Virus record (IMG/VR): IMGVR_UViG_3300046808_000337
Coordinates: 6,038-70,037 of that record
Reading direction: 5' to 3' (one strand)
Length of the DNA: 64,000 nt
Origin: a virus
Shown here: piece after piece, positions 10,283 to 56,800 of the stretch
Position numbering within the stretch: position 1 is the stretch's first letter
How the letters are laid out: each line of letters opens with the position of its first letter
Position numbers and translations under genes: made by a program
Notes under the pieces: model-generated
Database searches by the model: none
Told to the model about the DNA's origin: nothing
Seen by the model: only the letters and a program-made list of their open reading frames with translations

Positions 10283-10307
10283 ATCGTTTTATTTTTTTGT
10301 TTGTTAA

Positions 10308-10339
10308 AAATAGGGAGGGGTTTCCCCCTCCCCATTTTG
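10308..10339 (-). terminator. Intrinsic terminator after MCP
   Basis: GGGAGGGG/CCCCTCCC stem with T-run on the minus strand, just after the MCP stop. Confidence 0.8.
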
Positions 10340-27856: not shown

Positions 27857-27869
27857 GTAGAAAAATGTT

Positions 27870-27965
27870 AGTCAGGTGGCAGAAATGAGTAATTGCAAGT
27901 GTTCTTCAAACGGCAAGTGTACATAGCCTACCTTTTTACAGGTTCGAGTCCTGTCCTGACTACCA
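27870..27965 (+). ncRNA. tRNA-like RNA with non-canonical anticodon arm
   Basis: Acceptor AGTCAGG/CCTGACT followed by ACCA; T arm ACAGG-TTCGAGT-CCTGT; no anticodon stem-loop. Confidence 0.6.
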
Positions 27966-28018
27966 TGTTAACCCACAAAGACTAGAAACGGGTGACAGCT
28001 CGGAAAGACGAGCAATAT

Positions 28019-28088
28019 GGAGTGATAGCATAGTGGTATGCGTTGGGGTGAAATCCCAAAGAGTTAGGTTCGACTCCTGGTCTCTCCA
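28019..28088 (+). tRNA. tRNA-Phe(GAA)
   Basis: Cloverleaf: GGAGTGA/TCTCTCC (one mismatch), D arm GCAT/ATGC, TTGGG-GTGAAAT-CCCAA, TTCGACT loop. Confidence 0.8.
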
Positions 28089-28094
28089 CAACAT

Positions 28095-28186
28095 AGTCAG
28101 GTGGCGGAATGGTAGACGCGGTGAATGGCAATGTACACACCATGGGTGAGAAACCCTGCTTACAGGTTCGAGTCCTGTCCTGACTA
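28095..28186 (+). ncRNA. tRNA-Leu-like RNA with expanded anticodon loop
   Basis: Same acceptor and T arm as 27870; Leu-type D arm GGCGGAATGGTAGACGC; long variable arm; GGTG-N14-CACC in place of the anticodon arm. Confidence 0.65.
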
Positions 28187-28194
28187 CAAAACAA

Positions 28195-30267: not shown

Positions 30268-30360
30268 TCGTAAACTATCCCGGGTTGGGGTCCCCCCCTA
30301 GTCCCCCCCGCGAGAAAAAATTTCCCGAAGTCGATATGGCAAACGGGGTGGGGTCGAATA

Positions 30361-30376
30361 CGTTCCACGTGGAACA
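30361..30376. promoter_or_regulatory. parS-like palindrome
   Basis: CGTTCCACGTGGAACA, 15/16 identical to TGTTCCACGTGGAACA. Confidence 0.65.
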
Positions 30377-31204
30377 TCGGCACCCGCCTCGCTCGCTTGC
30401 TTGCCTAGGCTCGGGAGAAAGTAAAGTATTATGTACAGCTATAACATAGGGTATTCTTGGTATCCCATCGGTGGACAAAGTAGACTAACATACTGATAAC
30501 CAACCACATACCGCAAGAATAACTTGTAGTGCTACGTTTATGCATGCGGTTATCTATACGAAATGCAGCCCGCTCCCCTGTATTTAACTTATCATTAACA
30601 GGCCTGTGCCGTCTGCCCTGTGGCCCGCGTGTTTAGTTAATGCCCTGTTAATTCGAGGCCTAACATGCTGAGAATCAACTGCTTGGGCCAGATTCTGCCT
30701 TATTTAGAACCATTCCAAATAGCATTTTGAGGGGGCATAGAGGCATTATCTCGGGCTCGGATGTATGTAGATACCACCTAGGGCGAGAAAGTCGATTTAA
30801 AGCAATTTCCGCGTGTTTACAGGGGTTCTAGCAGGCCCGCTCTTTTTGGTTAGGGCAACCTAGCTCGGGAAGGCCTAATGTGCGGGCGCGCATGAGTGCT
30901 TTGTATGCCTATTGGCTAGTTTGTGCCGGTGCTTTGTGTGTCTCTATAGGGATCTATGGGAGGGCCTTGTGTGGGACTGCCCGCGCTCGGGGCTAGGTTT
31001 GCAGTGTTAACTGCTATGAGAACCAATAAGTTAGGTGGGAATTTCCCCAAATATAGGGTATGTTGGCCCCATATCCAAATATACCCTTAACTTTTTTGTA
31101 CACTGATTATCAACACGTTACATTAAAAACATTATGTTATGACATAAAAAGTGTTACTGAAATGTTAATGTCGAGCTCACAGCGAGCAGACCCCCCCATC
31201 TTTG

Positions 31205-31570
31205 CCCTGTTCAACGGAACAACAGCTGTACTGACCATGTATCTACCATACACAGCGCAGTTGCACGGGGGTCGCATCCGAGACAACACGACAACTAGAG
31301 GTTATAGCCACCTAGGCAAGCGAACCAAAAGGTCGCTCATCGGCTCACTAACTGAAAAGGCAGCGCAAGCGGCTGAATGAAAGGGTGTGAGATGCAAAGG
31401 CATACGACAGATAGCGGGAACGTCGATAAAGCCCGCAGTTCTTTGAAGTACTGAGACCATGTGTGCAAAGCACGCCACCGAACAGGTGGGGAAACCGCAG
31501 GGAGGCCGATGACACCCTCTACTAGTTGCGCTGATAGCCGAAAGGACGCGCCATACATGGACTCGCAAGA
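31205..31570 (+). ncRNA. Large structured leader RNA of the early operon
   Basis: Nested long-range helices, several GNRA-type loops, no credible ORF. Confidence 0.55.
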
Positions 31571-31583
31571 CAACAACTAAAAC

Positions 31584-31633
31584 AACAACGCCACCGACGG
31601 GGTGCTCATCTAGGTTCGACTCCTAGCGTTGTT
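31584..31633 (+). ncRNA. tRNA-top-half mimic 1
   Basis: 7-bp AACAACG/CGTTGTT plus CTAGG-TTCGACT-CCTAG. Confidence 0.65.
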
Positions 31634-31657
31634 CTAAACTTATACACAACACAACAC

Positions 31658-32008
31658 ATGGAAACACAGGAATTACTCAAGTCACTTAGCGGCATGCAGG
31701 TGGCTAAATTTGAAGACAACACAATCTACATGACTAACGGCATGGAGGTGCGTCACTACGTCAAACTCAACGAGTGGATAAACTTCGACTCATACGGGCG
31801 GCCCGACGATTTGGCCCTGCAAATGCAGTTGATTGTGCTATTCAACGGCGCACAGGTAATGACATGGGGCGCCGAGACCGAGCTAGACAACGCCTTGCTA
31901 GTGCGTTGGTGGAAACAACACTCGGCCATAGGTAGAAACAAGAGCCAAGAGGTGCAGCAGGACCTAGGCAAGGTCGGCTACACGCTGCTAATGCAGGGCA
32001 TTGACTAG
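31658..32008 (+). CDS. First early gene, hypothetical
   Basis: 116 aa; CAA-rich leader. Confidence 0.65.
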   Translation: METQELLKSLSGMQVAKFEDNTIYMTNGMEVRHYVKLNEWINFDSYGRPDDLALQMQLIVLFNGAQVMTWGAETELDNALLVRWWKQHSAIGRNKSQEVQQDLGKVGYTLLMQGID

Positions 32009-32059
32009 GTAAACTGACGAGTCTTCAATAGACGAAACCGCCTGCGGGCGGTCTTTACC
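32008..32059 (+). ncRNA. Type I hammerhead ribozyme 1
   Basis: GGTAAA-CTGACGA-GTCT/AGAC-GAAA-CCGCC/GGCGG-TC-TTTACC; predicted cut after C32053. Confidence 0.9.
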
Positions 32060-32072
32060 AACACACAACAGC

Positions 32073-32282
32073 ATGAAAAAACGATTCTTTTTCCGCCGCC
32101 CGTCGCAATTCTCATTCGACATGGTGGTGACAATCAACGACGACAGGCACGAAGCCAACTTCCTAGCCTCCATGGTGCGCAAGGGCTACGAGATAGTAGA
32201 CACCGAGACATACCGCGCCGAGTGCGCTATGTTCGCACCATTCAGAAAGACTAGACTATCATACGGCGGACGCAAATTCTAA
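32073..32282 (+). CDS. Early hypothetical protein
   Basis: 69 aa; CAA leader. Confidence 0.6.
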   Translation: MKKRFFFRRPSQFSFDMVVTINDDRHEANFLASMVRKGYEIVDTETYRAECAMFAPFRKTRLSYGGRKF

Positions 32283-32301
32283 CATTAACACACAACATAA
32301 C

Positions 32302-32583
32302 ATGGAAACTACTGAAAAATTCGCTCGCATATGCAGCGCAACAAACGAGGGTATGAATGAGGGCTACCTATTCGAAGAGTCCCTCATGTATTTCATTGAG
32401 CATGAAGACGCCGAACGCTACGCAATTGAGCTAGGCTATGCCGACCTCGACGAGGCATACGACGACGACGCGTACTGCTACACCGAATGGGACGTAGAAG
32501 ACGAGCGCGAATGGTATGAGAAGCATGCCGGCCAATGGTACGAATGCACACAGGACAGCAAGATATTAATCAACAACAACTAG
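32302..32583 (+). CDS. Very acidic early protein
   Basis: 93 aa, D/E/Y-rich; possible DNA mimic (inference). Confidence 0.6.
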   Translation: METTEKFARICSATNEGMNEGYLFEESLMYFIEHEDAERYAIELGYADLDEAYDDDAYCYTEWDVEDEREWYEKHAGQWYECTQDSKILINNN

Positions 32584-32588
32584 TCAGC

Positions 32589-32852
32589 ATGATACACAAC
32601 GAGCACCTACAGAAAGCGGACGAACTATACGAGGTCCGCCACGACAACAACGGCAACGCTATACACGTCTATGTAAAGGACGGCGAGGCTATCGTATTCC
32701 CCTCACTACATGACTTTGTGATGAGGGTATACTACGGACAGGAGGTCGAGCGCTTCTACCTAGACGAGGAAGAGCTGACCGACCTGTATAACGAGAGCGC
32801 ATACGACTACTACACGCTCAAGGCTAAACACGAGGCAATACAGAACAGCTAG
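32589..32852 (+). CDS. Early hypothetical protein
   Basis: MIHNEHLQK...; start adjusted to ATG 32589. Confidence 0.6.
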   Translation: MIHNEHLQKADELYEVRHDNNGNAIHVYVKDGEAIVFPSLHDFVMRVYYGQEVERFYLDEEELTDLYNESAYDYYTLKAKHEAIQNS

Positions 32853-32892
32853 GCATGGTGGCCATGGAGGGGTTCGCTTCCCCTCCCTAGCT
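32847..32892 (+). ncRNA. tRNA-top-half mimic 2
   Basis: 7-bp AGCTAGG/CCTAGCT plus GAGGGG-TTCGCTT-CCCCTC. Confidence 0.55.
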
Positions 32893-32925
32893 CTAATTTA
32901 TTAACAACAATTTATATTCAACACT

Positions 32926-33849
32926 ATGAACAACAATTTCAACCTCGACAGCATGCTGTCAACAATCGCCACAGGCGCTAAGACAATCGAAACCCTCCAA
33001 GCTACAGGCCTCGATTGGCAGGTAAACAAGGTACAACTCTACACACCCGACGGCACACCTGTCGACAGCGCATGGGCCAATCAACGAGCGGACAACGGCG
33101 CTATCCTAGGCGTAATGTCCGAGCAGTACGCAGTCTTTCAGAACGAAGAGTTGGCTGAGCTATGCGAGGCAATCGCAGGCGAGTTTGGCTACACCATCCA
33201 CAAGGGCGGCGCTCTCAACGGCGGCAAGAAGGTCTACCTACAGCTGTCAGCGGGCAGCGTTACAGGTATCGGTGACAACAACGACCGCGTAGAAAAGTAC
33301 GTGACGGCGCTCAACTCATTCGACGGCAGCAGCAGCGTTTGCTTCGGGTCCCTAGGGTACACGATTAGCTGTCAGAACACGTTCTACCGCGCAGCCCGCG
33401 ACAAGGCCATGAGCCGCGTGCGCCACACCTCTAGCATGCGCGACCGAATCGAGGCAGCCAAGCACCAAATCTTGGGTATCATCAAGGCCGACGAGAGCCT
33501 GTACGACACCTTCTTCAAGATGGCCAATGCTCAGATGACCCCCGAGATTGTACGCAGTGTGGTGCAGCAGTTGACCGACGTCGACATTACCAAGACGCCG
33601 AGCAGCATCAAGGCTGACCACAGCGCCCGCAAATTCAACATCGCAAGCGACCTGCTAGACAGCATACGCCGCGAGACTTCATACAAGGGCGGCTCGCTAT
33701 GGGGACTGATGAGCGGGGTTACTCACTACACCACTCACAAAGCCTCCGCTCCTAACCGCGAGAATGGCCGTATCGAGGCTAAGATGACAGGCAACGCAGG
33801 TTCAATGGACGCGCAGGCCTTCGATATCCTAGCCAAGATTGTAGCATAG
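32926..33849 (+). CDS. DUF932/DUF945-family early protein
   Basis: GLDWQV, LGV.S..Y...QN, GALNGGKKVY, NSFDGSS, CQN and SLWGL..GVT.Y.TH motifs. Confidence 0.8.
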   Translation: MNNNFNLDSMLSTIATGAKTIETLQATGLDWQVNKVQLYTPDGTPVDSAWANQRADNGAILGVMSEQYAVFQNEELAELCEAIAGEFGYTIHKGGALNGGKKVYLQLSAGSVTGIGDNNDRVEKYVTALNSFDGSSSVCFGSLGYTISCQNTFYRAARDKAMSRVRHTSSMRDRIEAAKHQILGIIKADESLYDTFFKMANAQMTPEIVRSVVQQLTDVDITKTPSSIKADHSARKFNIASDLLDSIRRETSYKGGSLWGLMSGVTHYTTHKASAPNRENGRIEAKMTGNAGSMDAQAFDILAKIVA

Positions 33850-33908
33850 GTAAACTGATGAGACTTCAGTAGTCGAAACCACGGGGCCCTGTCCCTGTGG
33901 TCTTTACC
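33849..33908 (+). ncRNA. Type I hammerhead ribozyme 2
   Basis: GGTAAA-CTGATGA-GACT/AGTC-GAAA-CCACGGG/CCTGTGG-TC-TTTACC; predicted cut after C33902. Confidence 0.9.
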
Positions 33909-33918
33909 AACAACTTAT

Positions 33919-36831
33919 ATGAACACAATGTACGTCATCAAGATTACGCGCACGACATCGGGAGAGGTGACCCTGCGCAAGGAAGTCAGCGGCTACACTA
34001 GGGCCTACAACCTATTCACGGAGCTATGCGACATGCACGGCTACGACATCCAAGAGAACCCCATGGAGGGCGGCTACCTAGCGGGCGGCCACAGCCACGA
34101 CTTCATCATCGAGCTGTACGAGCCTAGCGACGACAACGAAGAAACTCAATACGAACCCTTTTAACAACACCAAATCATGAAGACTAGACTAACCCTCATC
34201 GCGGTGTTTATCGCGGCCCTATGGCTCGCTTCTGACATCGACAAGCACATGCTGCTGCAAGATTGTGTGCAGCAAACCGACGGCAGCGACGCTGCATGCG
34301 ACAGCTGCTACTACGTAATCTACGGAGCATACCCAACCCACTAAACCCACAGCAACATGGCAAACTACCAATCAGCAATCGACGCTGCAAAGCAGCAGCA
34401 GGCAATCGACGAGGTTACAAACTTCATCGAGTACTTCACGTCCGACGACGACTTCCGCATCATGATGCAGCAGTCTCTACAGGACTACATGAACCACGTT
34501 TGGAAACCATAAACACAACAGCAACATGACAACTCAGCAAATTAAACAGCGCCTCCTGTTCATCATTGAGGACGCAAACAGGCTCATGCAGCACATCGAA
34601 TCGGGCAACGGCATGCAAGACCCTACGGCCTTTGCCGACAGCGGGTGGACTCACCTGTCTAACATTCAGATAGCCGCCGACCCCGAGGACACCGAGTCCG
34701 ACCAATGGAAAAAAGAATCATTAAACTAAACACAACAGCAACAATGACAACTCAGAAACTCACAGCAGACACTATCGACAGACTGATAGGCCGCACCATT
34801 CACAGCGCAGGCGACAATTGGATACAGCTAGACAACGGCATCCGAATCTATCTAGACGACAGCGAAATCGAACACCTTAATTAACAACAGCATGAAACAA
34901 GAGTACATGGGTATCAGCGGCAAGGTTAGCCATGACCCAGAATTAAGCAAGCAGTACAACGCCCTGCTACAGAAGCTAGGCACGGAAGGTATGCTCGTCC
35001 TCATCGAACGATGGATGGACGACAGCGACCTGCAATCAATCATCGCATACGACGACAACTACTAAACACAACAACAACAGCAACATGAAGACCTTATTTC
35101 TATTGGCAGCGCTTGCCATACAACAGCTAACAGCCGACGTTAAATTCCGCGAGATGCAAGACGACGGCACAATCGTGTACGAGGGGCAAGACCCCGACAC
35201 GGGACGAGACTTGTACATGATCATGCTGCCGGACAGCAGCGTGGCCCACTACGCATACCGCGAGGAGGCCATAGAGTACATCAAGACAGGCACATTCAAA
35301 TACAACGACTTCATTAAATAACAACAACATGAGAAAGATTACAGCACAGGCAGTGCAAGCCTTTGAAAATGCAACCCCATTCAAGAACGGCAACACACAG
35401 GTTGAAGTGACACCCAACTGCACAATCTTGAAACTATTTGGCAACCCCATAGCATACCGGTACAACGACCCCGAGCGCACACTCAGCATAACCAACTGCG
35501 GGTGGCCTACAGACACGACGCGAGAGAGACTCAACGGCATAGAAGGCGTGAGTGTATCGCAGTCCGCAGGCAAGTGGTACCTCAACGGCGTTGAGTGGGA
35601 CGGCAATCTAATCGATGTAAACGTAAAACCAATATAACAGCAACATGAACAGACAAGACAGACTCAGAAAGTACGACCGCATTATGTCGGCTGTAGTTGT
35701 AGCAATCGTGCTCACCATGCTCCTAGCATCCTGCACAGCCCCACGGGGCCTTGGCTACCAAGACCACCTGCGCTCAACACCTAGCAACAATTGGGTACGC
35801 CACGACAACGGCGGATGCGGGTGGAACAATTAACATTCACTAACAAGCGGGTGCAGTATGCGGCAGGTATATTGCACCCGCAATCTAAACACTAACAACA
35901 TGAACGAAGAGAAAGTAATCAGCTACATCCAAGAGCAAATCATGAACGAATGGCGCTCGGTAATGAAGTACGAAGACCAACTACGCAACATCGCGTTTCA
36001 CACCGAGGAAGACCACATCATCCACGACTGCATCGCCAACGCGAAGGAACGAATCGAAATGTATACAATAATCCTAAACAAGTTTGAACAATGAGCATCA
36101 ACAACGACGCATGGAAGCTATCCAACCCCGACGACGACGGGCACTACACTGAAGACCACACACCTCGCATTCAATCGTGCATCTACTACAAGTTTATCTC
36201 AGACCACAGGCTATCCAACCGCCCCGTGTACGGGATGTTCACGACCTCCGGTCACGACATCAAGATATGGAACTGGTTCGGCATCGAGACAATCGACATC
36301 GAACCGATCGGTACAGAGGTGGAAGAGATTGAGTCAGAGATATACCGCATCAAACAGAACTACACCGGCTACGAACTGATAGCAAAGGACGAGTTCTTAG
36401 AGGTGTTCAACTCGGTACAGGAACGAATCAATAAACTAGTCAGCCATGAAGCAATGTATTGACAACATAGCATTCGCCCTCATGACGTGGCTCCTAAAGG
36501 ACATCGACAAATGAACATCGACTACCGCGCAGGCGACGAGATTGTTTGCATAAGGGACCACTCACAGGGTGTCGTCAAGAAGGGAGAGATATACACCGCA
36601 CACAAGTTGAATCGCAACGGGTGTGGGTGTATACTCCTTGTTGACGTTGGGTATATATCTGACAGGCCGTTCACTAAGTGTCCTGCCTGTGGAATGAACG
36701 ACGAGAAGACCGACGACGTGTGGTGGATAGACGCTCGCTTGTTCCGGAGACTTCTCACCAAGTCAGAAGAGGAAGACCTCGCTGACGTGCTGGCTGAGGT
36801 GTTCCAAGAGGAACTAATTAGCCTTAATTAA
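33919..36831 (+). other. Array of about 12 small early genes
   Basis: ORFs 33919-34164, 34177-34344, 34357-34512, 34526-34729, 34744-34884, 34892-35065, 35085-35321, 35329-35637, 35645-35833 (lipobox LASC), 35900-36094, 36091-36462 and 36511-36831; most are preceded by a (T)AAACACAACAGCAAC-like leader. Confidence 0.65.
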
Positions 36832-36879
36832 TAATAAACAACAGCAACATCAGCATGTTGCACTATATTTGTAAAAGCA

Positions 36880-37086
36880 ATGGCAACACTATTCAAACTC
36901 AAAGATGGCTACGAAATGGTCACCAACTCGCGTGACATTTATGCAATCAGCCACACCGGTAGGACGATTAAATACATCGGCAGGGGCACACCGGAATACA
37001 AGTCCCGAGGCAAAAAACTCTCGGAAATACCGCCCGAAATCAGACAGACATTCTTCGACATACAACGACACAAATCAGAAATCTAA
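36880..37086 (+). CDS. Hypothetical protein
   Basis: 68 aa after TATATTTG at 36864-36871. Confidence 0.55.
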   Translation: MATLFKLKDGYEMVTNSRDIYAISHTGRTIKYIGRGTPEYKSRGKKLSEIPPEIRQTFFDIQRHKSEI

Positions 37087-37091
37087 ACAAC

Positions 37092-38087
37092 ATGAATTGG
37101 AACCTACAACAGCTATGGAATGAATGCGTTTATTCCCAACAACGTGCGCTAGAGCCACGCGATTATTGCTATGCATCAGAAATCGGACAGCCCCTTGTCG
37201 ATCGGTATCTGAAGATGAAGGCCGTCACGCCAACTAACCCGCCTAACATGCGCAGCCTCCGTAAGTTCGAGGCAGGCAACCTTGTCGAGTGGGTAGTGCG
37301 ATACGTGCTAGAGCGTGCCGGCATCATCTTCAACACACAGGAACGTGTCATGGTCGAGTACCCCAACATGCTCAAGGTGTCCGGACGTATCGACTTTCTA
37401 GCCGGTGGCCGCATCGACATCGAACGTGCCAAGCAAGACATCACATCGTCTCACCTGCCCGAGTCTATCCAAGCATCCTCCCTGTACATCGCCGAGAGGT
37501 TGTACGAGAAGTTCGGTGACAAGGAGCTAGAGACAAAGGTGCTGGAGATTAAGTCCTGCTCATCCTTTGTAATGGACATGATGGAGAAGACTGAGAAGCC
37601 TATCAAGCACCACCGCTTGCAGCTATTCCACTACATGAAGGGGCTCAACCTCAATGGTGAACTAGTGTACATATGCAAGGATGACCTCCGGATGATGTGC
37701 TTCCAATACGAGCCTACAGCCGAGCTGGAGCAGGAGTACCTCGCCGACCTCGCCGGCATCACCCACTACTTCACGTCTAACACACGCCCACCACTAGAGA
37801 AACTCATCATGGTGGAGGACGGCAAGTTCAAGAAAAACTTCGGCATCGAGTACAGCAACTACCTCAAGTTCCTGTACGACTTCGAGGAGCCACGCGACTA
37901 CGCCGACTCAGTCAAGTCACAGGTTGCACGTTGGACCCGCGTCATCGCACGCTACGCAAAGGGCGAGAAGATAACTGCCAAGAACGAAGAGGTACGCGCC
38001 GAGATCGAGGCAGCCGGATACAACTTCAGTCAGATCGTAGAGCAGGCCAAGAAGTTTGGCGTAACAGAAGAGGAAGAAGAAATCTAA
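37092..38087 (+). CDS. PD-(D/E)xK (Cas4/YqaJ-like) nuclease
   Basis: YASEIG, SGRID, LEIKS and Q..HY motifs. Confidence 0.75.
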   Translation: MNWNLQQLWNECVYSQQRALEPRDYCYASEIGQPLVDRYLKMKAVTPTNPPNMRSLRKFEAGNLVEWVVRYVLERAGIIFNTQERVMVEYPNMLKVSGRIDFLAGGRIDIERAKQDITSSHLPESIQASSLYIAERLYEKFGDKELETKVLEIKSCSSFVMDMMEKTEKPIKHHRLQLFHYMKGLNLNGELVYICKDDLRMMCFQYEPTAELEQEYLADLAGITHYFTSNTRPPLEKLIMVEDGKFKKNFGIEYSNYLKFLYDFEEPRDYADSVKSQVARWTRVIARYAKGEKITAKNEEVRAEIEAAGYNFSQIVEQAKKFGVTEEEEEI

Positions 38088-47978: not shown

Positions 47979-50900
47979 TTATATTTTAGTTACAAGCAAT
48001 TGAAGGTTTGCCCAAGAGAATACCGCAGCCCCTGACTCTACGTTAAATCCAAGGATGTCGTTAGCGGCAAGAGTAACTGATGTCCACCCAGAAGGTGATG
48101 CACTTGTTATTTGCTGTGTGGCGCTCGTTAGGAATGGCTTGGTCCCGCCTCCAACCAATGAGTTAGCTACCGTTGGGATAGCATTGTTTGCCCTCCATAT
48201 ATCAAACGTCACGGTTGCTCCCAAACCAGAATTACCTGTCAAGATCGACCATGTGTTAATTGTACAAGCGTATGGGATTCTTATGTACCCCTTCTGGCCG
48301 GCTGTAATTACACCTCCCGATCCGTCAACCGTAATACCTATGCTGAACGTACCCGATAAGCTTGGAACGCTGCCCGTTTTCCATTGGCTATCAGCCGAAT
48401 CAAAGTATATCGTATCATTATCGTTAGGCGACTGCGCCTGTACGTCATGAAGCTCATCTAACTCGTATCCGTTCTGGCATCGAACGTAGATCTGACCATT
48501 ACCCGCGTTGCTCTTCTCTACTATACCCACGTACACACGGTGTGTTGGTGCATAAGTTGGAGTTGATGTATAACCTCCGGGTGTGGTTCCGCTCAAGTAC
48601 AGGGTAGCACCTGCCGCAAACGCCGCCGTGTTGATTCCCTCTATTACACCTTGAATGATGATGTAACCCTCGCCACCCGCTGCGATTGATGAGTCGTAAA
48701 CCATACCAATCGTCTTTGCCGAAGTGTCGTCTGCATTAGCAAGAGCGAGCTTTACGCTCATCCTGTCTCCGGAAGCACCAAACGCATATACTACCTGACC
48801 CTTGGTTATTGGGGCAGCCTCTGAGTTGTGTACGTATGCAAGTAGTTGGTTGGTCACCAATCCGATTGCTTGGAAGTTTGTTCCGTCATACACGACCATG
48901 ATTTCTTGGCCTGCCTTGATATCCCCTGCCGCAATCTTTACATTGGTGTTCTTGAATATGTTGATTGGCGCAAGAGTATTTATCTGTAATGTAGACTCTC
49001 CCTCGTTGGTGCTATCAAAATTAATCATGAAGGCTTCGCCAGCCGTGTATGCGGTAACACCAGATATTGTCGCTTCATATACGCCGTCTGTCACCTGAAT
49101 AGCGTTTCCCGACTTTAAACCGCCGCCTCCGCCAGTTGGGGTAAACTCAACCACATCACCACTAGAGTTTACACCTAGCGCCCATACAGGGCTTGCATCA
49201 GGGAATTGAGCGGGGGTTTGGCCGTATTCATTTAACTTCAACTGACCAAGTGTGTCAATCTCAAGTTTGTTAACAGGAATAGGGCTTCCTGATTCCTTAA
49301 TGGAAACAAAGAAGTCAGCAGTTTCAGCATTGCCAGCAGCCGTTACTGATGTAGAAACAAATCCTATGTTACCTGCATCATAGCTTGTTGCGTTGTCATT
49401 GCTTAATGTATACAGAGTCTTGGCCCCATGTCCTATAAGTCCCCCTCCAATCCTTGTAGAAAAAACGTGGAGTGGCGTTCTTATCAAGTCTGCCACATCT
49501 GAGTTGGAACTTATTACTCCAGCCATTACTCCGTAAGATCTGCTGCCAATGGTCTGGATGTGATTATTAGTTGTTCCTAAAACGCCTATGCCTTTAGTGT
49601 TTCCTTGTCCAAAAATACCTGCTGAATTGTATGCCGCACCCGCATTTAAGCCTCCCCTAACGGCATAGGAAGCTCCAAGAGTAGCAACCAAGCTATTATT
49701 AGTCACGCTAAGCACACTAATTCCAGTTGGTGGTGTGCCAACTATTTGCAGGTTAAAGTCATCAAAGTTAAGATACCTATCCTGCGTAAACATATTGCCG
49801 ACAGTACCTGCATCTCCCGATGATAAGTACCCTAACTGAAATGTTTCGTTTGTAAGGGAGGTATTCTTGTATATGCCTTCGTTTGCGTCGTAGGTTCCGC
49901 CGCCACCGCCAAGAGGAACTTCCATTATTGACCCAGAAGCATTAACACCCAATCCGTATACCGCTGGACTAGCTGGATTTGTAAGCCAGGTTCCTATACC
50001 GTAAGTGTTAAATATCACTTGACCGTCCCCCTCAAATTGGGCAACCCTTCTGATGTTTGGGTCATTAGAAGGAAGTGTATACCCCTCTATGACAAAAGCA
50101 GTTCCATATTCTATAGCCAGTATGTTTTCCGGGCTTGCTATGTAGCCTATGTTACCTGCTTGCTTGTATCCAATACCCGTATTTGGGTCTGGTATTGCAA
50201 AAGATACCCTGGCAGACTTATCAGACGCATTTCCGGATGTTGTTGCGCTTCTCCATAGTTCTAAAACATTGTTTTGAGTATCGCTTTCTTGTAAGAAGTA
50301 AGACGCAAACTTCTGAGATACCTCCATACCGCTTACTGGAGCGTTTATTCTCAATCCAGATCCGGTTGTCGAGTCAAGATTTAATACAAATCCATCTCCA
50401 ACTGTACCTGAAACATTGAAATTAACCATCCCGCCTGGATATACGGGGTCAACACCCTCCATATTAAACGTAAACGTATCTAAGTCTACGAATCTGTTTT
50501 CTTGAAACGCTATACTAGCTTGCAGTCCAGATGGCGCACCAAGCATGAACGTGTCATTGGTAAGTGTAGTATCCTTATATACGCCTTGATTGGAGTCGTA
50601 GGTTCCGCCTCCACCATCTGCACTAAGTGTGTCGCCAGTCAAGGTCAACCCAGACCCAATAACGATCTGCTCGAAAACCCCTGTGCCTGAGCTATAACGT
50701 CCCACGAGGAATCCGCTGTCCATTATAGATGTAACAGTCCCTGTGGTTTCAATCGGATTCGGAGACGTGGTCAAGAGTCCTGTTGCGGTTACTGAGGTAA
50801 CAGTTCCTCCGCCCTCAGATAACTTCTTAAAGACGTTACCGCTCGTATCAACGGCAAGCACGTATTCGAGGTCGTTATTGATATTGCTTGTGCTGTTGCT

Positions 50901-52664
50901 GAACGCAGATGTAGCGTATTCATTCAACACAAGCTGACCAAATCCCTGCAACTCTAGCTTGTTTGAAAGCGTTCCGTTATCAACGAGTTGAACCTCAAAC
51001 CTAGTCTCCTCATTACCATCAACAAAACTTACCACCTCGGTAGACAGGCGAGAGCCTATGAAGTTTGAGCTGGCTACTACCGCGTTGTTGTTTCTGAACT
51101 GGTAGTCTATCGTCATCATGGCAAGCGATGGATCACCCGTGTAACGGAGGCGCAAAAGCGTGTCGTCCGCAGTCGGGAGGTTGCCCTCCATGTTTAACTC
51201 AAGTAACGGCTGGAGAAGGTCGACATCGCCGACGATTTCTACGGACGGATTAGGTCTTGAGCCTGATCCATAGTCCTGGAAGGTGGCTACACCGCCATTT
51301 CCAAGATTAGCCACACCAAATGGGAAGCGAGTGTCTTGGTCTGCGCTGCCTCTTACAGATAGTTGCCACTCGTTTACCGGACCGGGGCTTGCCCCCTCCG
51401 TAGTTTCTATTAAGGTATCTTCGATAAGCTGTCCGCCCAAGTGGAACACCAAAGGATCGGCAGGAGATTCTTTTGTATGAAGACCGTTTTCTACTGTGTA
51501 CACCGGGAGCGTAGCGAGTTCACCAAGTCCATTGATGTACTCTAAGGCTGTACCCGCGCCTGTTACCAAAATATCACCCGAAGTAGTAATGGGAGAATTA
51601 GTCACGGTAAATGCACTAGGCATATCAAGGCCAACGGATGTAACCGTACCTGTGCCTGCTAGGGTATATTCGACGTGACCCGAAGCGTCAAGGGCGAGAA
51701 CCATTCCCGGTGTTGCGGTTGCGTATCCGGGGGTTATGATATCTACAAATGCATTTCCCGAAATGGTTACAGCCCCCGGATCTATTTGCACAAATCCAAT
51801 TGAGCCGGCACCATCATCTGCGGTGTAAACCTGGTAAGCGATTGTGTCTATCGTGTATCGGTTTACATTAGTCCACCCAAAATTAAATCCTCCACCGTCA
51901 ACCGCGTTATTCTGCGTAAGCAAAGAACTAATGTTCAACGTGTCCTGCCAGTCTTGAACCAGCGATCCGCCAACGCTTGTAACGTCTACGCAAAGAGATG
52001 TACCAGCAGGGAATCCGGCAGGGCCGGTGAGAAGGGTAGAATCAAATTGAGCATACGTTCCTCCATCGCTATAGTTAGATAACTGATATACGCCGTAAAC
52101 AGTCGGGTCAGTCTTGCTGAAAATAAAAACCCATGAACCATCTTGGACTATAGGCCAAAAGCCTGTGAAGTCTTGGTTGTTTGCTGTGAAATAATTAAAG
52201 CGAACAGCTGACCCGCCGTCTACAAATATACCGGGGTTCTCAGCACCAGTATCACCAGCCGTATACTGAATGGAACATTCCGGCTCCGTATTCCCGCACT
52301 CGCAGCATCCCTTGAAGATAGCGGTTACAAGAAGTCGATATATTTCAACTGTCTTGGCTTGTACTACATCGGAAGAGTCTTGGAATGTAAGTGGGGTAAA
52401 TGTGTTACCACCAACGTCAGTTATCGCGTAAATTGTAAATGTAAACGAGTCCCCGGATACCTGTGAAATTGTAATGCTATCGTACCGATACGAAATGTAA
52501 GTCGGCGTCTGTGGCATGATTTGACTCATGCCTCGAACGTACTGATACGGGGCAACAGTCCCATTTAGAAAGGACACTGTGTCGTTTCCCTCTACTTGTA
52601 TTCGGGTAATTATGGGATTGTTGATATCAATCCGTTGCCTGTTCGATGTCGGTATTGTAGCCAT
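47979..52664 (-). CDS. Large tail fibre protein
   Basis: 1561 aa; GTVTSV motifs, repeated GQL.LNEY..L.V..SG.V..GGGG modules, KGQVVY and ELDELHDV motifs. Confidence 0.75.
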   Translation of the reverse strand: MATIPTSNRQRIDINNPIITRIQVEGNDTVSFLNGTVAPYQYVRGMSQIMPQTPTYISYRYDSITISQVSGDSFTFTIYAITDVGGNTFTPLTFQDSSDVVQAKTVEIYRLLVTAIFKGCCECGNTEPECSIQYTAGDTGAENPGIFVDGGSAVRFNYFTANNQDFTGFWPIVQDGSWVFIFSKTDPTVYGVYQLSNYSDGGTYAQFDSTLLTGPAGFPAGTSLCVDVTSVGGSLVQDWQDTLNISSLLTQNNAVDGGGFNFGWTNVNRYTIDTIAYQVYTADDGAGSIGFVQIDPGAVTISGNAFVDIITPGYATATPGMVLALDASGHVEYTLAGTGTVTSVGLDMPSAFTVTNSPITTSGDILVTGAGTALEYINGLGELATLPVYTVENGLHTKESPADPLVFHLGGQLIEDTLIETTEGASPGPVNEWQLSVRGSADQDTRFPFGVANLGNGGVATFQDYGSGSRPNPSVEIVGDVDLLQPLLELNMEGNLPTADDTLLRLRYTGDPSLAMMTIDYQFRNNNAVVASSNFIGSRLSTEVVSFVDGNEETRFEVQLVDNGTLSNKLELQGFGQLVLNEYATSAFSNSTSNINNDLEYVLAVDTSGNVFKKLSEGGGTVTSVTATGLLTTSPNPIETTGTVTSIMDSGFLVGRYSSGTGVFEQIVIGSGLTLTGDTLSADGGGGTYDSNQGVYKDTTLTNDTFMLGAPSGLQASIAFQENRFVDLDTFTFNMEGVDPVYPGGMVNFNVSGTVGDGFVLNLDSTTGSGLRINAPVSGMEVSQKFASYFLQESDTQNNVLELWRSATTSGNASDKSARVSFAIPDPNTGIGYKQAGNIGYIASPENILAIEYGTAFVIEGYTLPSNDPNIRRVAQFEGDGQVIFNTYGIGTWLTNPASPAVYGLGVNASGSIMEVPLGGGGGTYDANEGIYKNTSLTNETFQLGYLSSGDAGTVGNMFTQDRYLNFDDFNLQIVGTPPTGISVLSVTNNSLVATLGASYAVRGGLNAGAAYNSAGIFGQGNTKGIGVLGTTNNHIQTIGSRSYGVMAGVISSNSDVADLIRTPLHVFSTRIGGGLIGHGAKTLYTLSNDNATSYDAGNIGFVSTSVTAAGNAETADFFVSIKESGSPIPVNKLEIDTLGQLKLNEYGQTPAQFPDASPVWALGVNSSGDVVEFTPTGGGGGLKSGNAIQVTDGVYEATISGVTAYTAGEAFMINFDSTNEGESTLQINTLAPINIFKNTNVKIAAGDIKAGQEIMVVYDGTNFQAIGLVTNQLLAYVHNSEAAPITKGQVVYAFGASGDRMSVKLALANADDTSAKTIGMVYDSSIAAGGEGYIIIQGVIEGINTAAFAAGATLYLSGTTPGGYTSTPTYAPTHRVYVGIVEKSNAGNGQIYVRCQNGYELDELHDVQAQSPNDNDTIYFDSADSQWKTGSVPSLSGTFSIGITVDGSGGVITAGQKGYIRIPYACTINTWSILTGNSGLGATVTFDIWRANNAIPTVANSLVGGGTKPFLTSATQQITSASPSGWTSVTLAANDILGFNVESGAAVFSWANLQLLVTKI

Positions 52665-53820: not shown

Positions 53821-56800
53821 TTACTTGCTAGTTTCTTTTTGTAGTTGCTTCAACTTTTTTTCGTAGTCAGCCACCGCTTCTTCAATCGTAGGAGGGATGC
53901 GCTTTCCAAGGGCCTTGAAGTACTCGTATGCCGCCGCGTTCTGTGCCAGCTTGGCCAGGTCGCCTATCTCGTCTGATATCTTTTCCTTCTTCTTCTTTTC
54001 GATGGCCATCTTCTTAGACTCCTCGTCGAGCTTGTCTTCCGGTACACCCTTCTTGATAGCCTCTGCGCGGGCCTGCTCAAGCTGGTTGTCGGTGACCTTC
54101 TCAAAGTTGGCCGGGAACTTCTTCTTGTCGTCGAGCGACGGCTTGGTGGCCGAGTATGTGTCCAAAAGGGTCGCTGCCTTCTTGCGGTAGTTTACGTTCA
54201 GCTGTACCAACTCATCGTCCGACAAAGGAACCGCGAACGTATCCTTCTTGATATCAGATATACCCTTGGGCTTAAACTCTTTTATGACTCCTGCCGTCTC
54301 CGGATTGTCATACTTCGGTGTAACCTTTTTGTCCTTGTACACGTTTATACCGGCACCTAAGAACGCATATGCGCTAAGGAAGGCCCCCTTCAGGTTTGGC
54401 TCCTCTTCAAATATTTCGAAAAGTGTGCTGGCGATCATAGGCGTCACACGCTCCTGTATCTGGTCGGTCAAAATAAAGTCCTCACCATAGGCGTTCACTC
54501 GCTTGCCATCTTCCTCGTGTGTGGTCAAGTAGTTTACAAGCAAGCTCGCGGTAGGATGCAGCTTGTTCCTTGCAAACTCAGCTATCAAGCCTCCCCGGGT
54601 GGGCGTGTTGTAGTCACCTAACTTCTTCTCCTCACCACCACGCACAAGGGCGTCGTTGTACAGGCGGGCCTGCAAAACAATGTGCTGGATAAATCCACCC
54701 CATGGGTCAATGTAGATGTCACCCATGCGGATCTTACCGAACCTAGAGCTGAGCGGGTTTAAGTCAACCTCAACCTCGTCCTCGTCGTCTTCGTTCGCCT
54801 TAAATGCTATCGTAGAGACTATACCGGTTGTAACAACAAACCATGTGATGAAGTCGCGTGCGGCCATCTTCTGTGCGACAGATGGGTAGAACGTACCCTT
54901 GTCCTTCAGCGTGAGTAAGAATATAGGAAACCCTACAGTAGACGTCTTCAGCTGGGACGCCCAGTTCTTTGGCGAGTAGAATATCTTAGAGAGTAGCCCG
55001 GCGTTCTTCTCGAGCGGTCCAAGCGAAGATCGACCGGTAAACGTGTTCACCATGTTGGCCACCTGCTTGTATGAGTCAGGATCAGTCTCGAACGTCTTTC
55101 CGTACTTGTCCCTGAGCATGGTTGCACCGTCCTCGAAGCGAAGCACACGCATGGTGTTGAGGTATCCAATACCCGCACGCTCAAAGGCCTTGAACGGGTT
55201 TGCTAACGTGACGCGTGTGTATGCGGCATTGCCGAACATCTTAAAAGGAAGCGCTAGGTAGTCCCACATGGAGTTACCCACACCACCCAAGAATCCTTCC
55301 TCCTTTTCAGACAACGACGCGTCGTACTCGGACAGTGAAAGCCCGGACTTCATCATCGTCTCGTAGTATGGCTGTGCCTTTATGAACTCTCCCCACTTGC
55401 GGGCACGGCTTTCACTCTTGAAGTGTTCGTAGGCCTTGTTGAACCCACGTATTGCGTACAGCGGGTGCGAAACGGTCAACTTGAGGCCCTGCACGAGCAC
55501 CATAGACAAGTCGAAGGTTGCCTGGAGCAGTCGGGCTATCTCCCAGAAGGCACCCAGTCCGTCCCATACCTTGGTTGGGCTGTTCTGTTTTTTAATCTTG
55601 TCGAGCTCCTTGTCGTACTGGTTCTGTAAGGTCTGGCGCTCTGCACGCAGTTCGTTCAGCTCCTCGTCTTCCTTTACCTTCTTGCGCTCCTGCTTGCTGA
55701 AGTCTCTTTCGTCAAGCCTGCGCTCGAGTTCTGCGATGCGCTTCTTTGCGTTCTCCTTGGCGTTTATCAGCCTCTGTGCGTCGCCTATGCCAGCCTCTTC
55801 GTATGCGTCCTGTATCTCCTGCGTGAGTTGCTTCTCCTTTTCGGTCAGCTTCGCCCTCTCCGAAGGCTTCTTGGCCTTGATCTTACCGGCCTGTATGTCC
55901 TCGAGCCTAGACTCCATGCGACCGATGTTGCGCAGTCTGGCGATCTCCCGCTGTATGTCGGTCTGGGTCATAGCCCGCTCACGTCCGTAACCACTTATGG
56001 CGTCGCGTATCTGGCGGTCAGTGGCGTTGGGGTACTTCTCTTGTATGCGAGACTTTATGTCCTGCACTAGCTCGTCCATGGTGGCTACCCCACTCTCTAC
56101 CGACTCACGGATAATGTTTGACGGTATGGATATCTTGCCGGGGGTGGTGCTCTGGAACTGTGCCCGCACCTGCGCCTCTACGGCCTTCTTGTCTGCGTCA
56201 GGCAGCGCCTGGAACCATGGCTCGGCACGTACAGCGTCTAGCGCAGCGTTTAAAGCAGCGTTGGATGCGGCACCGGAAAGGCTTGCCTTGGATATAAGTG
56301 AAGGCTTGCTCTTTAAATTCTTTACGGCGTTGGCTGCCGCGTCTACTATCTTGGCCCATGAGCCCTTGGGTATGCTAAGAGCGTTGCCCTTGGAGTCCTT
56401 GAACGACACAGACTTTTCCTTGAACTTCAGCACCTCAGCTGCCGCGTCGTTTGCCGTGTCCTTGATGTCTATGTTGGCCAGCTTGTCCTCGGCAGCCGCC
56501 TTGGCTATCTCGGCGAGGTTCCTTGCATCCTCTGCCTCCTTGGCCCGCTTCTCCATCTCGGCTATGCGGACGTTGAGCTCCTTTATACTCTCGTCTAGCT
56601 TGCGGTACTTCTCCTCGATCTCGGGGGATATGTAGTTAAAGTTCGCCTTCTTGTAGTCGTTGATCTGCTTGTCTAGGCTGTAGTTAAACAGCGAGTTCCG
56701 GTAGATGTCCTTGAGTGCGTTGGTGAACTGACCATAGGCAGTAGCCACCGCCGAGAACTCGTTCATCATCTTTGTCTGTAGGCTGTACAGCTCATTCTGA

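What the first reader, a model, noticed from the sequence alone, without database searches (positions are those of the whole stretch)
32008..33908. Two covarying type I hammerhead ribozymes inside the early operon
Seen: both copies have the full core (CUGANGA, GAAA, GUC) and identical stem I (GGTAAA/TTTACC). Stem II has compensatory changes (GTCT/AGAC vs GACT/AGTC) with similar loops (TCAAT/TCAGT), and stem III differs in sequence but still pairs. Each begins on the TAG of the upstream gene and would cut 19 and 16 nt before the next ATG. Established: hammerheads leave 2',3'-cyclic phosphate and 5'-OH ends. Inference: the phage cuts its own early polycistron into separately stabilised mRNAs, independent of host RNases.
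Basis: partly seen in the sequence, partly recalled or inferred. Interest (0 to 1): 0.85.

Follow-up and report, generated by a model that had tools for sequence, protein, structure and literature searches.

The report
Ribozymes and mini-tRNAs punctuate phage operon
Two genuine self-cutting hammerhead RNAs sit between genes of an uncultured freshwater phage, and close relatives carry a stripped-down tRNA look-alike at exactly the same gene junctions, which suggests that both are interchangeable marks for cutting one long message into gene-sized pieces.

Summary
Window 32008-32059 and 33849-33908 (+) are complete type I hammerheads with an intact core and stems of 6/4/6 and 6/4/9 bp. They start on the upstream TAG and would cut 19 and 16 nt before the next ATG.

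They belong to a large, almost purely viral subfamily: at least 118 IMG/VR contigs against 4 of about 185,000 prokaryote genomes. Rfam's thresholds miss it. Family traits are a stem I of exactly 6 bp flanked by A and AA, a UCAAU-type loop II, strong covariation, and a position squeezed between co-directional genes.

The idea that phage hammerheads cut polycistronic mRNA dates from 2011 (Perreault et al.) and is still untested.

What is added here: the same operon holds two anticodon-less tRNA-like elements (31584-31637, 32847-32896). In close relatives these elements replace the hammerheads at the same junctions. Three complete ~70-kb relatives have no hammerhead but 2-4 such elements.

Both module types overlap the upstream stop codon and leave a short leader, so the productive cut probably lies at their 3' edge.

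No RNA-end data could be obtained. Earlier notes of this scan describe the same pattern in other phages. The hammerheads are new members of a known kind; the interchange is a new variant.

The parts
31584..31637 (+). tRNA-like element 1 (TLE1, long-middle subclass). It has a 7-bp acceptor stem AACAACG/CGUUGUU, a 19-nt middle with a small hairpin, a 5-bp T arm with loop UUCGACU, and a CUAA tail. The ATG of the first operon gene lies 24 nt after the acceptor. The predicted 3'-edge cut is 31634|31635.
   Evidence: Descriptor scan, (random expectation 0.2 hits per 64 kb). Model R2 gives only 16.8 bits, E 0.056. Homologous elements with compensatory acceptor and T-stem changes occur in L125, L127, L130 and L018.
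31658..32008 (+). Gene gA (116 aa, no family match); its TAG stop overlaps HH1 by 1 nt
   Evidence: Conserved at 79% in L121.
32008..32059 (+). Hammerhead 1, type I; predicted cut at 32053|32054 leaves a 19-nt leader before the ATG at 32073
   Evidence: 72.8 bits; the minimum-energy fold is the hammerhead fold.
32073..32282 (+). Gene gB (69 aa, unknown). Across phages its orthologues are preceded by a hammerhead, by a tRNA-like element, or by nothing.
32302..32852 (+). Genes gC (32302-32583) and gD (32589-32852), unknown function. No RNA element lies between gB, gC and gD. The TAG of gD lies inside the acceptor stem of TLE2.
32847..32896 (+). tRNA-like element 2 (TLE2, short-middle subclass). 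It has a 7-bp acceptor AGCUAGG/CCUAGCU, a 13-nt middle with the conserved AUGGUG, a 6-bp T arm with loop UUCGCUU, and a CUAA tail. The predicted 3'-edge cut is 32893|32894. The ATG of DUF932 lies 33 nt after the acceptor.
   Evidence: 75.5 bits; in the training set; family covariation
32926..33849 (+). DUF932 protein (307 aa), bracketed by TLE2 and HH2
   Evidence: Pfam PF06067 E 6e-29; phrog_1221 E 3e-42
33849..33908 (+). Hammerhead 2, type I; predicted cut at 33902|33903 leaves a 16-nt leader before the ATG at 33919
   Evidence: (59.4 bits, not in the training set)
33919..34164 (+). Gene gF (81 aa, unknown). The same gene follows a tRNA-like element in L122 and L130.

Best explanation
The 31.6-34.2 kb stretch is one co-directional message of an uncultured freshwater phage, probably of a Bacteroidota host. 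It is punctuated by four autonomous RNA modules of two kinds, in the order TLE1, HH1, TLE2, HH2. The hammerheads cut themselves at their 3' edge. After the cut, the folded ribozyme with a 2',3'-cyclic phosphate stays on the 3' end of the upstream mRNA, whose stop codon remains intact. The downstream gene receives a 5'-OH, unstructured, A/C-rich leader of 16-19 nt. The tRNA-like elements are acceptor stem plus T arm plus a GG-bearing mini D-loop, with no anticodon arm. They most likely do the same job through host tRNA-processing enzymes, with the productive cut at their 3' edge, after the discriminator C (RNase Z-like). The two module types are exchangeable cassettes, because relatives carry one or the other at the same junction.

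Shown here: the motifs, their covariation, their context, and the exchange.
Inferred: cleavage in vivo, the enzyme that acts on the tRNA-like elements, and any effect on mRNA stability or translation.
For: 1. Complete hammerhead cores and stems at both sites; chance is excluded.

2. Family structure. A pattern that fixes only the core and stem II matched 124 places in L003-L120, and 123 of them fold as full type I hammerheads. Stem I is exactly 6 bp in 121. The control with shuffled upstream sequence folded in 155 of 2480 trials. In 38 gapless members, 99.5% of cells are paired and 12 of 16 pairs carry double changes, against 32-38% paired in slid controls.

3. Context. Of 170 distinct hammerheads, 110 start within -6 to +6 nt of the upstream stop codon, and 123 have the next ATG 9-50 nt after the cut. 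None of 122 loci has hammerheads on both strands.

4. The tRNA-like elements are real RNA structures. In 27 distinct sequences, 99.4% of cells are paired and 11 of 13 pairs carry double changes, against 52-62% in slid controls. The T loop UUCGAUU and a UGG in the middle are conserved.

5. Exchange at the DUF932 3' junction. A hammerhead sits there in the window, L124 and L128. A tRNA-like element sits there in L121-123, L125-127, L129 and L130. In alignment A6 the homology stops at the stop codon and resumes at the leader.

6. Exchange upstream of gB. A hammerhead is present in the window and L249, and a tRNA-like element in L251 and L252.

7. Complete relatives. G001-G003 have 0 hammerheads and 2-4 tRNA-like elements; G004 has 1 hammerhead and none of the elements.

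8. A distant phage, L045 (DUF932 35% identical), has the order TLE, gene, HH, DUF932, TLE.

9. Shared geometry. The stop codon overlaps the 5' strand of the tRNA-like element in 19 of 34 contexts and of the hammerhead in 68 of 163 contexts with an upstream frame. The 3' end of the tRNA-like element lies 13-39 nt before the ATG in 32 of 35 cases.

10. There is no excess of sigma-70-type promoters or terminators in 30300-37200.
Against: - There is no RNA evidence. The only RNA run was contigs and covered neither site.
- Rfam does not call the hammerheads at its curated cut-offs.
- HH2's hammerhead fold is 0.6 kcal/mol above an alternative fold.
- No loop II pseudoknot was found that would secure fast cleavage at low Mg2+: 45 of 165 contexts have a 4-nt complement upstream, against 30 expected.
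- The module is dispensable. gB orthologues in L250 and L253 have no element directly upstream, and most junctions of the operon have none.
- TLE1 scores only 16.8 bits with model R2.
- If RNase P cut the tRNA-like elements at the usual 5' site, it would sever the upstream stop codon in 19 of 34 cases. The enzyme and the site are therefore open.
- Family retrieval was biased by my own pattern and descriptor.
- The promoter scan does not cover Bacteroidota-type promoters.
Confidence: 0.62

Rival explanations
1. The modules are cis-acting structural insulators or 3'-end protectors, and cutting is not the point. The hammerhead body and the tRNA-like fold would shield the upstream mRNA from 3' exonucleases. 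Alternatively they would keep upstream coding RNA from pairing with the Shine-Dalgarno-less leader of the next gene, with cleavage incidental or absent for the tRNA-like elements.
For: Both module types sit directly on the stop codon and stay attached to the upstream gene. Leaders are G-poor and lack Shine-Dalgarno motifs: 10 of 98 ORFs have one. Terminase relatives are all phages of Flavobacteriia.
Against: The full catalytic core is invariant across the family, which a mere hairpin would not require. A simple stem-loop would serve as a protector. The tRNA elbow features (T loop, UGG) are conserved.
Confidence: 0.15
2. The function is at the DNA level. The conserved modules would be recombination joints at the borders of shuffled gene cassettes, comparable to boundary sequences of phage modules, and the RNA folds would be secondary.
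For: Gene order differs between relatives exactly at the modules. For example, L124 has DUF932, HH, gD, gC, whereas the window has gC, gD, TLE, DUF932, HH, gF. Homology breaks at the module edges.
Against: Stems vary by compensatory changes while pairing is kept, which is selection on RNA and not on DNA identity. All modules lie on the coding strand (0 of 122 loci mixed). Stem sequences are too varied to serve as long homology tracts. This role may well coexist with the RNA role.
Confidence: 0.1
3. The two hammerheads, which share an identical stem I, release the 1849-nt gB-to-DUF932 segment with 5'-OH and cyclic-phosphate ends. An RtcB-type ligase then circularises it, as in viroid-like RNAs and retrozymes.
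For: Stem I is identical in both copies (GGUAAA/UUUACC) and they have the same orientation. The end chemistry of hammerhead products suits RtcB (established knowledge, recalled).
Against: Close relatives have one hammerhead or none at these sites. Stem I is also the same in L121, L124 and L128, so the identity looks like shared descent. Perreault et al. looked for circular or spliced products from clustered prophage hammerheads and found none (PMC3088659).
Confidence: 0.04
4. The motifs are inactive relics or chance look-alikes.
For: Sub-threshold Rfam scores; no activity data.
Against: Randomisation gives 0.017 hits per window at looser thresholds. The core is invariant, the stems covary, and the context is strict across the viral loci fetched: 217 descriptor hits, 147 distinct sequences, in 122 loci.
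Confidence: 0.03

Closest known systems
Clustered hammerhead ribozymes flanking genes in prophages and phages (Perreault et al. 2011, PMC3088659; passages read)
   Same: Several hammerheads lie in one orientation between co-directional phage genes and bracket single genes or short blocks. That paper proposes processing of long phage transcripts into gene-length mRNAs and shows in vitro cleavage of polycistronic fragments. One bracketed gene there (ardA) is an anti-restriction gene. By recall, not by any search, DUF932 is found in similar early or leading regions.
   Different: This is a type I subfamily with a fixed 6-bp stem I flanked by A and AA and a UCAAU-type loop II. No stem I/loop II pseudoknot was detected. 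It alternates with tRNA-like elements at the same junctions, which that paper does not mention in the passages I read. I could not see its Dataset S1, which may already list members of this subfamily.
Rfam RF03152 RAGATH-1 hammerhead and RF00163 Hammerhead_1
   Same: Same catalytic core and type I topology. RF03152 is the best Rfam match (34.1 and 28.9 bits).
   Different: Both are below the gathering scores of 56.3 and 34. The upstream hairpin of RF03152 is matched in HH1 only, and its stem II region is shorter. Across 20 related loci only 1 hammerhead passes RF00163.
tRNA punctuation and t-elements of mitochondrial transcripts (Forner et al. 2007, PMC1920247; search listing and start of abstract only)
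   Same: tRNA-shaped folds that are not functional tRNAs sit between genes of polycistronic transcripts and define mRNA ends through RNase P and RNase Z.
   Different: Here the setting is a phage of bacteria. The element lacks the anticodon arm altogether, overlaps the upstream stop codon, and is interchangeable with a ribozyme. No cleavage has been shown.
RNase III processing of the phage T7 early polycistronic mRNA (recalled textbook knowledge, no call)
   Same: An early phage message is cut between genes, leaving a protective hairpin on each upstream 3' end.
   Different: T7 uses host RNase III on long hairpins. Here the cut is self-catalysed or uses tRNA-processing enzymes.
Synthetic ribozyme-flanked and tRNA-flanked RNA arrays and ribozyme insulators (recalled, no call)
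   Same: Engineers use hammerheads and tRNAs as interchangeable processing modules between units of one transcript.
   Different: Those are artificial. This would be a natural counterpart.

Membership tests
Hammerhead ribozyme, type I | Conserved core: C3-U4-G5-A6-N7-G8-A9, G12-A13-A14, the A15.1-U16.1 pair, and a cleavage-site H17 that is not G | tested here: met
   Both copies have CUGA(C/U)GA, GAA, an A...U closing pair of stem III and C17. The core columns are invariant in 38 family members.
Hammerhead ribozyme, type I | Three helices around the core in the order I-II-III, with stems II and III capped by loops and stem I open | tested here: met
   Stems are 6/4/6 and 6/4/9 bp. The minimum-energy fold of HH1 equals this structure. 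HH2's hammerhead fold is within 0.6 kcal/mol of its minimum-energy fold.
Hammerhead ribozyme, type I | Covariation supporting the three helices | tested here: met
   99.5% of cells paired, 12 of 16 pairs with double changes, covariation score 0.74 against 0.03-0.09 in slid controls. Caveat: the sequences were chosen by a descriptor that demands pairing. The less biased test is: 123 of 124 pattern matches fold.
Hammerhead ribozyme, type I | Score at or above the curated Rfam gathering cut-off | tested here: not met
   RF00163 gives 16.8 bits against 34. RF03152 gives 34.1 and 28.9 bits against 56.3.
Hammerhead ribozyme, type I | Tertiary contact between stems I and II (loop-loop or pseudoknot) for fast cleavage | tested here: inconclusive
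   No clear loop II complement in the flanks: 45 of 165 against 30 expected. Conserved A at -1 (89%) and A at +1 (90%) and +2 (76%) beside stem I could supply a contact, but this is unproven.
Hammerhead ribozyme, type I | Site-specific self-cleavage giving 2',3'-cyclic phosphate and 5'-OH ends | not testable with these tools
   RNA contigs of run X24 do not cover the sites.
RAGATH-1 hammerhead (RF03152) | Additional conserved hairpin 5' of stem I and a very short stem II | tested here: not met
   The hairpin is matched in HH1 (31989-32003) but mispaired in HH2. Stem II here is 4 bp with a pentaloop.
tRNA (for the tRNA-like elements) | Cloverleaf with D arm and anticodon arm; detection by ARAGORN or RF00005 | tested here: not met
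   ARAGORN and Rfam call only the tRNAs at 28019-28187. On the elements themselves there are only chance-level Rfam hits, for example mascRNA with E = 1. The middle part is 10-13 nt in the short subclass and 17-28 nt in the long subclass (aligned rows).
tRNA (for the tRNA-like elements) | 7-bp acceptor stem stacked on a T arm with the UUCRANY loop and a G-C closing pair | tested here: met
   The T stem is 6 bp in most members, not 5.
t-element / tRNA-punctuation signal | Cleavage by RNase P and/or RNase Z that defines mRNA ends | not testable with these tools
   Only the context argues for it. The position beside start codons and the exchange with a ribozyme are seen.

The most novel reading that the evidence does not exclude
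Phages of Bacteroidota and other hosts run a modular 'RNA punctuation' system. In it, self-cleaving hammerheads and anticodon-less mini-tRNAs are functionally equivalent cassettes that swap freely. Both cut at the module's 3' edge. Each upstream mRNA then keeps its stop codon plus a protective fold, and each downstream gene, notably DUF932, gets a short Shine-Dalgarno-less leader. If so, the natural swaps would be the first comparative evidence of what bacterial and phage hammerheads are for. They would also define a new class of RNase Z-type (or other) mRNA processing signals in bacteria.
Probability: 0.5. Interest if true: 0.8.

Novelty: new variant of a known kind. Interest (0 to 1): 0.6.

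Why it matters
The biological purpose of the hundreds of bacterial and phage hammerheads has been open since 2011, and a 2019 review still says so. Near-identical phages that carry either a hammerhead or a tRNA-processing signal at one and the same gene junction amount to a natural swap experiment. They point to transcript cutting as the selected function, with a particular geometry: the cut at the 3' edge, the fold kept on the upstream mRNA, and a short leader downstream.

The question becomes testable in cultured systems. The same hammerhead subfamily occurs unannotated in Pelagibacter phage HTVC019P. A weaker match (two mispaired stem II positions) lies in a Flavobacterium phage, under a probably spurious annotated ORF.

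There is also a practical gap: Rfam's thresholds miss nearly all members, and the tRNA-like elements have no family at all.

Tried and rejected
- **RNA evidence.** Laid out, its 7 contig pieces cover only 31236-31600, 34067-34184 and 34768-34889. They say nothing about the cut sites.
- **Cultured or named relatives by DNA.** blastn of 31600-34200 against 50,697 phage records gave no match. DUF932 against genome contigs gave no relative.
- **Bare sequence pattern.** CTGANGA...GAAA...TH gave 12 matches against 15 expected, which is uninformative; a structure-aware scan was needed.
- **Loop II pseudoknot.** Not supported.
- **MAFFT alignment of the tRNA-like elements with unequal middles.** It misaligned the acceptor strands (A2). 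I used a 7-sequence subset (A3) and then the model-fitted alignment A5.
- **Viral scan with a T-arm pattern.** Of 121 matches, 46 lay in ordinary tRNA genes. Another 68 belonged to other layouts that I did not pursue, many with a 5-bp acceptor-like stem. Only 7 had the mini-tRNA layout. I therefore make no claim about the abundance of the tRNA-like elements.
- **blastn of TLE2 against phage records.** Only a chance T-arm hit.
- **gF as a query for more junctions.** Only one locus, from a contig I already held.
- **Hits of HH1 stem III to lambda-like phages** are chance matches. The crAss-like hit L260 scored 12.3 bits and is rejected.
- **Literature.** Searches found no paper on hammerhead/tRNA-like exchange in phages within the searchable library. 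Subscription journals and supplements were not visible.
Full report
**Observation**

The window is bases 6038-70037 of a 70,037-bp IMG/VR virus record that CheckV rates as 100% complete. At 32008-32059 and 33849-33908 on the + strand the sequence reads as two complete type I hammerheads.
- Stem I is GGUAAA/UUUACC in both copies.
- The core is CUGA(C/U)GA ... GAA ... A-stem III-U, followed by C17.
- Stem II is GUCU/AGAC in HH1 and GACU/AGUC in HH2, with loops UCAAU and UCAGU.
- Stem III is 6 bp in HH1 and 9 bp in HH2, with unrelated sequence.
- The first G of each motif is the G of the upstream TAG (ORFs 31658-32008 and 32926-33849).
- The predicted cuts at 32053|32054 and 33902|33903 lie 19 and 16 nt before the ATGs at 32073 and 33919.

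A structure-aware descriptor found only these two sites on both strands. Of 300 Markov randomisations of the window, 5 gave any hit, and that was at looser thresholds. A bare sequence pattern is uninformative: 12 matches against 15 expected.

**Rfam and folding**

Rfam reports nothing here at gathering score. With E-value thresholds the best hits are RF03152 (RAGATH-1 hammerhead) at 34.1 and 28.9 bits against a cut-off of 56.3, and RF00163 at 16.8 bits against 34. HH1's minimum-energy fold is the hammerhead fold, alone and with 20-nt flanks. HH2's hammerhead fold (-20.7 kcal/mol) lies 0.6 kcal/mol above an alternative fold in which its UCAGU loop pairs with the core.

**The family**

The pattern ACTGANGAGNCTTCANTAGNCGAAAC fixes only the core and stem II. 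It hit only 4 contigs in one genome each of about 185,000 prokaryote species, two of them Bacteroidota.

- Of the 124 matches in loci L003-L120, 123 complete a full type I fold; the exception lies at a locus edge.
- Stem I is exactly 6 bp in 121 of them.
- The free stem II pair is complementary in 124 of 124.
- With the upstream 12 nt shuffled, 155 of 2480 trials folded.

Stem I is flanked by A at -1 (89%) and by A at +1 (90%) and +2 (76%) in 165 contexts, which explains its fixed length. A loop II pseudoknot is not supported: 45 contexts against 30 expected.

In a gapless alignment of 38 members, 99.5% of cells pair and 12 of 16 pairs show double changes. Slid controls pair at 32-38%. These sequences were picked by a descriptor that demands pairing, so one search is the fairer test.

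Model R1, built from that alignment, finds only the two sites in the window with filters off: 72.8 bits for HH1 and 59.4 bits for HH2, which was not in the training set.

Across 20 related loci, Rfam's gathering scores catch a single hammerhead.

**Context in the family**

All hammerheads of a locus lie on one strand: 0 of 122 loci are mixed. Of 170 distinct contexts:
- 110 start within -6 to +6 nt of the end of an upstream frame of 40 aa or more, and 68 of these overlap the stop codon;
- 123 have the next ATG-ORF 9-50 nt after the cut, with the mode at 25 nt;
- 9 lie inside a same-strand ORF and 9 inside an opposite-strand ORF.

**A second kind of module**

At the site downstream of DUF932, eight of ten relatives fetched with the DUF932 protein (86-100% identity) carry no hammerhead. 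They carry a roughly 46-nt element instead: a 7-bp acceptor-like stem, an 11-13-nt middle with a conserved AUGGUG, a 6-bp T arm with loop UUCGAUU, and a CUAA tail.

The window itself has two such elements. TLE2 lies at 32847-32896, directly before DUF932. TLE1, a variant with a longer middle, lies at 31584-31637, before the first gene of the array (random expectation 0.2 hits per 64 kb).

Model R2, built from 7 sequences, scores TLE2 at 75.5 bits (it was in the training set) and TLE1 at only 16.8 bits. On 39 matches (27 distinct), 99.4% of cells pair and 11 of 13 pairs show double changes, against 52-62% paired in slid controls. This alignment is fitted to the model, so it leans towards the structure.

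The conserved UGG and the canonical T loop mimic the tRNA elbow. There is no anticodon arm. ARAGORN and Rfam do not call these elements; the only hit is mascRNA at E = 1.

**Exchange**

*DUF932 3' junction.* A hammerhead is present in the window, L124 and L128. A tRNA-like element is present in L121, L122, L123, L125, L126, L127, L129 and L130. In alignment A6 the homology runs to the stop codon, is replaced by either module, and resumes at the leader AACAAC..ATATGAACAC. DNA contigs of other freshwater samples show the same replacement: 33846-33912 is exchanged for 66 other letters.

*Upstream of gB orthologues* (window plus 8 loci):
- a hammerhead in the window and L249, which is the same contig as L121;
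- a tRNA-like element in L251 and L252;
- a longer T-arm-bearing element, judged by eye and not matched by R2, in L254-L256;
- nothing in L250 and L253.

*Whole genomes.* Three complete ~70-kb relatives (G001-G003) have no hammerhead by R1 and 2-4 tRNA-like elements by R2. The 34.8-kb G004 has one hammerhead and no tRNA-like element.

*A distant phage.* In L045 (DUF932 35% identical) the order is TLE, gene, HH, DUF932, TLE. Of 118 hammerhead loci, 4 hold a DUF932 homologue, and 3 of those have a hammerhead 31-156 nt upstream of it.

**Where the cut should be**

Thirty-five distinct contexts of the tRNA-like elements were examined. Among the 34 with an upstream frame, the upstream stop codon overlaps the 5' acceptor strand in 19. 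The acceptor's 3' end lies 13-39 nt before the next ATG in 32 of 35.

A canonical RNase P cut at the 5' edge would therefore sever many stop codons. A cut at the 3' edge, after the nearly invariant discriminator C and before U, would mirror the hammerhead. In that case the fold stays on the upstream mRNA and the downstream gene gets a short leader. That a U after the discriminator and the absence of CCA favour RNase Z is recalled knowledge, not tested here.

**Host and transcription**

The terminase has only remote relatives, at 24-25% identity. Of 87 matching records, 86 are phages of Flavobacteriia. Shine-Dalgarno-like motifs precede only 10 of 98 ORFs. No excess of sigma-70 promoters or intrinsic terminators is seen in 30300-37200, but that scan does not model Bacteroidota promoters. 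'Early' expression is plausible from the gene content and is not shown.

**Literature**

- Perreault et al. 2011 (PMC3088659, passages) describe multiple hammerheads flanking genes in prophages. They propose processing into operon-length or gene-length mRNAs, show in vitro cleavage, and found no circular or spliced products.
- A 2019 review (PMC6765202, passages) says the purpose still needs defining.
- Forner et al. 2007 on plant mitochondrial t-elements was seen only as a listing and the start of its abstract.
- Searches found no report of hammerhead/tRNA-like exchange in phages in the searchable library. Supplements and many journals were not visible.
- The meaning of the name RAGATH is recalled.

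**Earlier notes of this scan**

After I had stated my reading, a word search showed that this scan has described the same pattern in other phage genomes: e1-3488195, e1-5325268, e1-6129472, e1-5890340 and e1-5871238. The last is marked 'part of it fell', without details. These are unchecked AI notes on other DNA and are not used as evidence.

**Cultured carriers**

R1 finds a member in Pelagibacter phage HTVC019P (NC_020483.1, 2948-3008; 48 bits), in an unannotated gap of the early region. It finds a weaker one, with two mispaired stem II positions, in Flavobacterium phage vB_FspP_elemoF_6-3D (NC_055853.1, 16045-16102 complement; 37.6 bits), under a 35-aa ORF annotated on the opposite strand.

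**Verdict**

The hammerheads are real and are new members of a known kind. Its 'host-independent' clause is weakened by the tRNA-like elements in the same operon. The exchange with anticodon-less tRNA-like elements at identical junctions is the informative part. It supports transcript punctuation with a cut at the 3' edge of either module. No RNA data back any cleavage step.

Noticed in passing
window 30300-31640: About 1.3 kb upstream of the operon has no convincing gene. The 106-aa ORF at 31060-31380 has no family hit and is not conserved as a unit. The region is conserved at 67-88% nucleotide identity in blocks among relatives. Five of the 7 pieces of the only RNA run map to 31236-31600. 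It could be a long structured leader or a non-coding RNA that ends in TLE1.
   Followed up: partly
window 27866-27967 and 28095-28187: Two paralogous odd tRNA-like genes share the same acceptor stem and T arm. ARAGORN calls the second 'tRNA-???' with a 4-base anticodon, gcaa. The first is not called, has a long insert, and is followed by an encoded CCA. They flank a normal tRNA-Phe inside the same co-directional gene array.
   Followed up: no
viral loci L131-L248: Sixty-eight T-arm-bearing stretches are neither ARAGORN tRNAs nor the mini-tRNA layout. Many share ..CUGAUGGUGUAGG-T arm-CCAGG.AUUG.. with only about a 5-bp acceptor-like stem. This may be another widespread viral tRNA-fragment-like element or attachment-site remnants.
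   Followed up: no
L018:8786-8831, L082:3362-3407, L011:8402-8450, L250:2090-2135, L254:2096-2141: A subgroup of the tRNA-like elements ends in CUC(C/U) instead of CUAA. It is followed by a conserved hairpin (CCUGCAUAGCAGG-like) and a conserved gene start ..AAUGCAAC, so the module seems coupled to one particular downstream gene.
   Followed up: partly
L258 (NC_055853.1 16030-16137): The annotated 35-aa 'hypothetical protein' gp66, on the opposite strand, lies exactly over the hammerhead-like motif between gp65 and gp67. It is probably a spurious ORF call.
   Followed up: partly
window 10304-10337 (-): A G+C-rich hairpin with a U tail lies between two minus-strand structural genes. It looks like a terminator. 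It gave weak hits to Rfam Termite-leu (28.9 bits against 51) and to model R2 (16.9 bits). It is not a tRNA-like element.
   Followed up: no
window 558-4901, 53821-57324, 57816-61871 (-): Three very large ORFs (1447, 1167 and 1351 aa) have no PHROG match at E 1e-5. A fourth (1561 aa, 47979-52664) matches only in its last ~115 residues.
   Followed up: no
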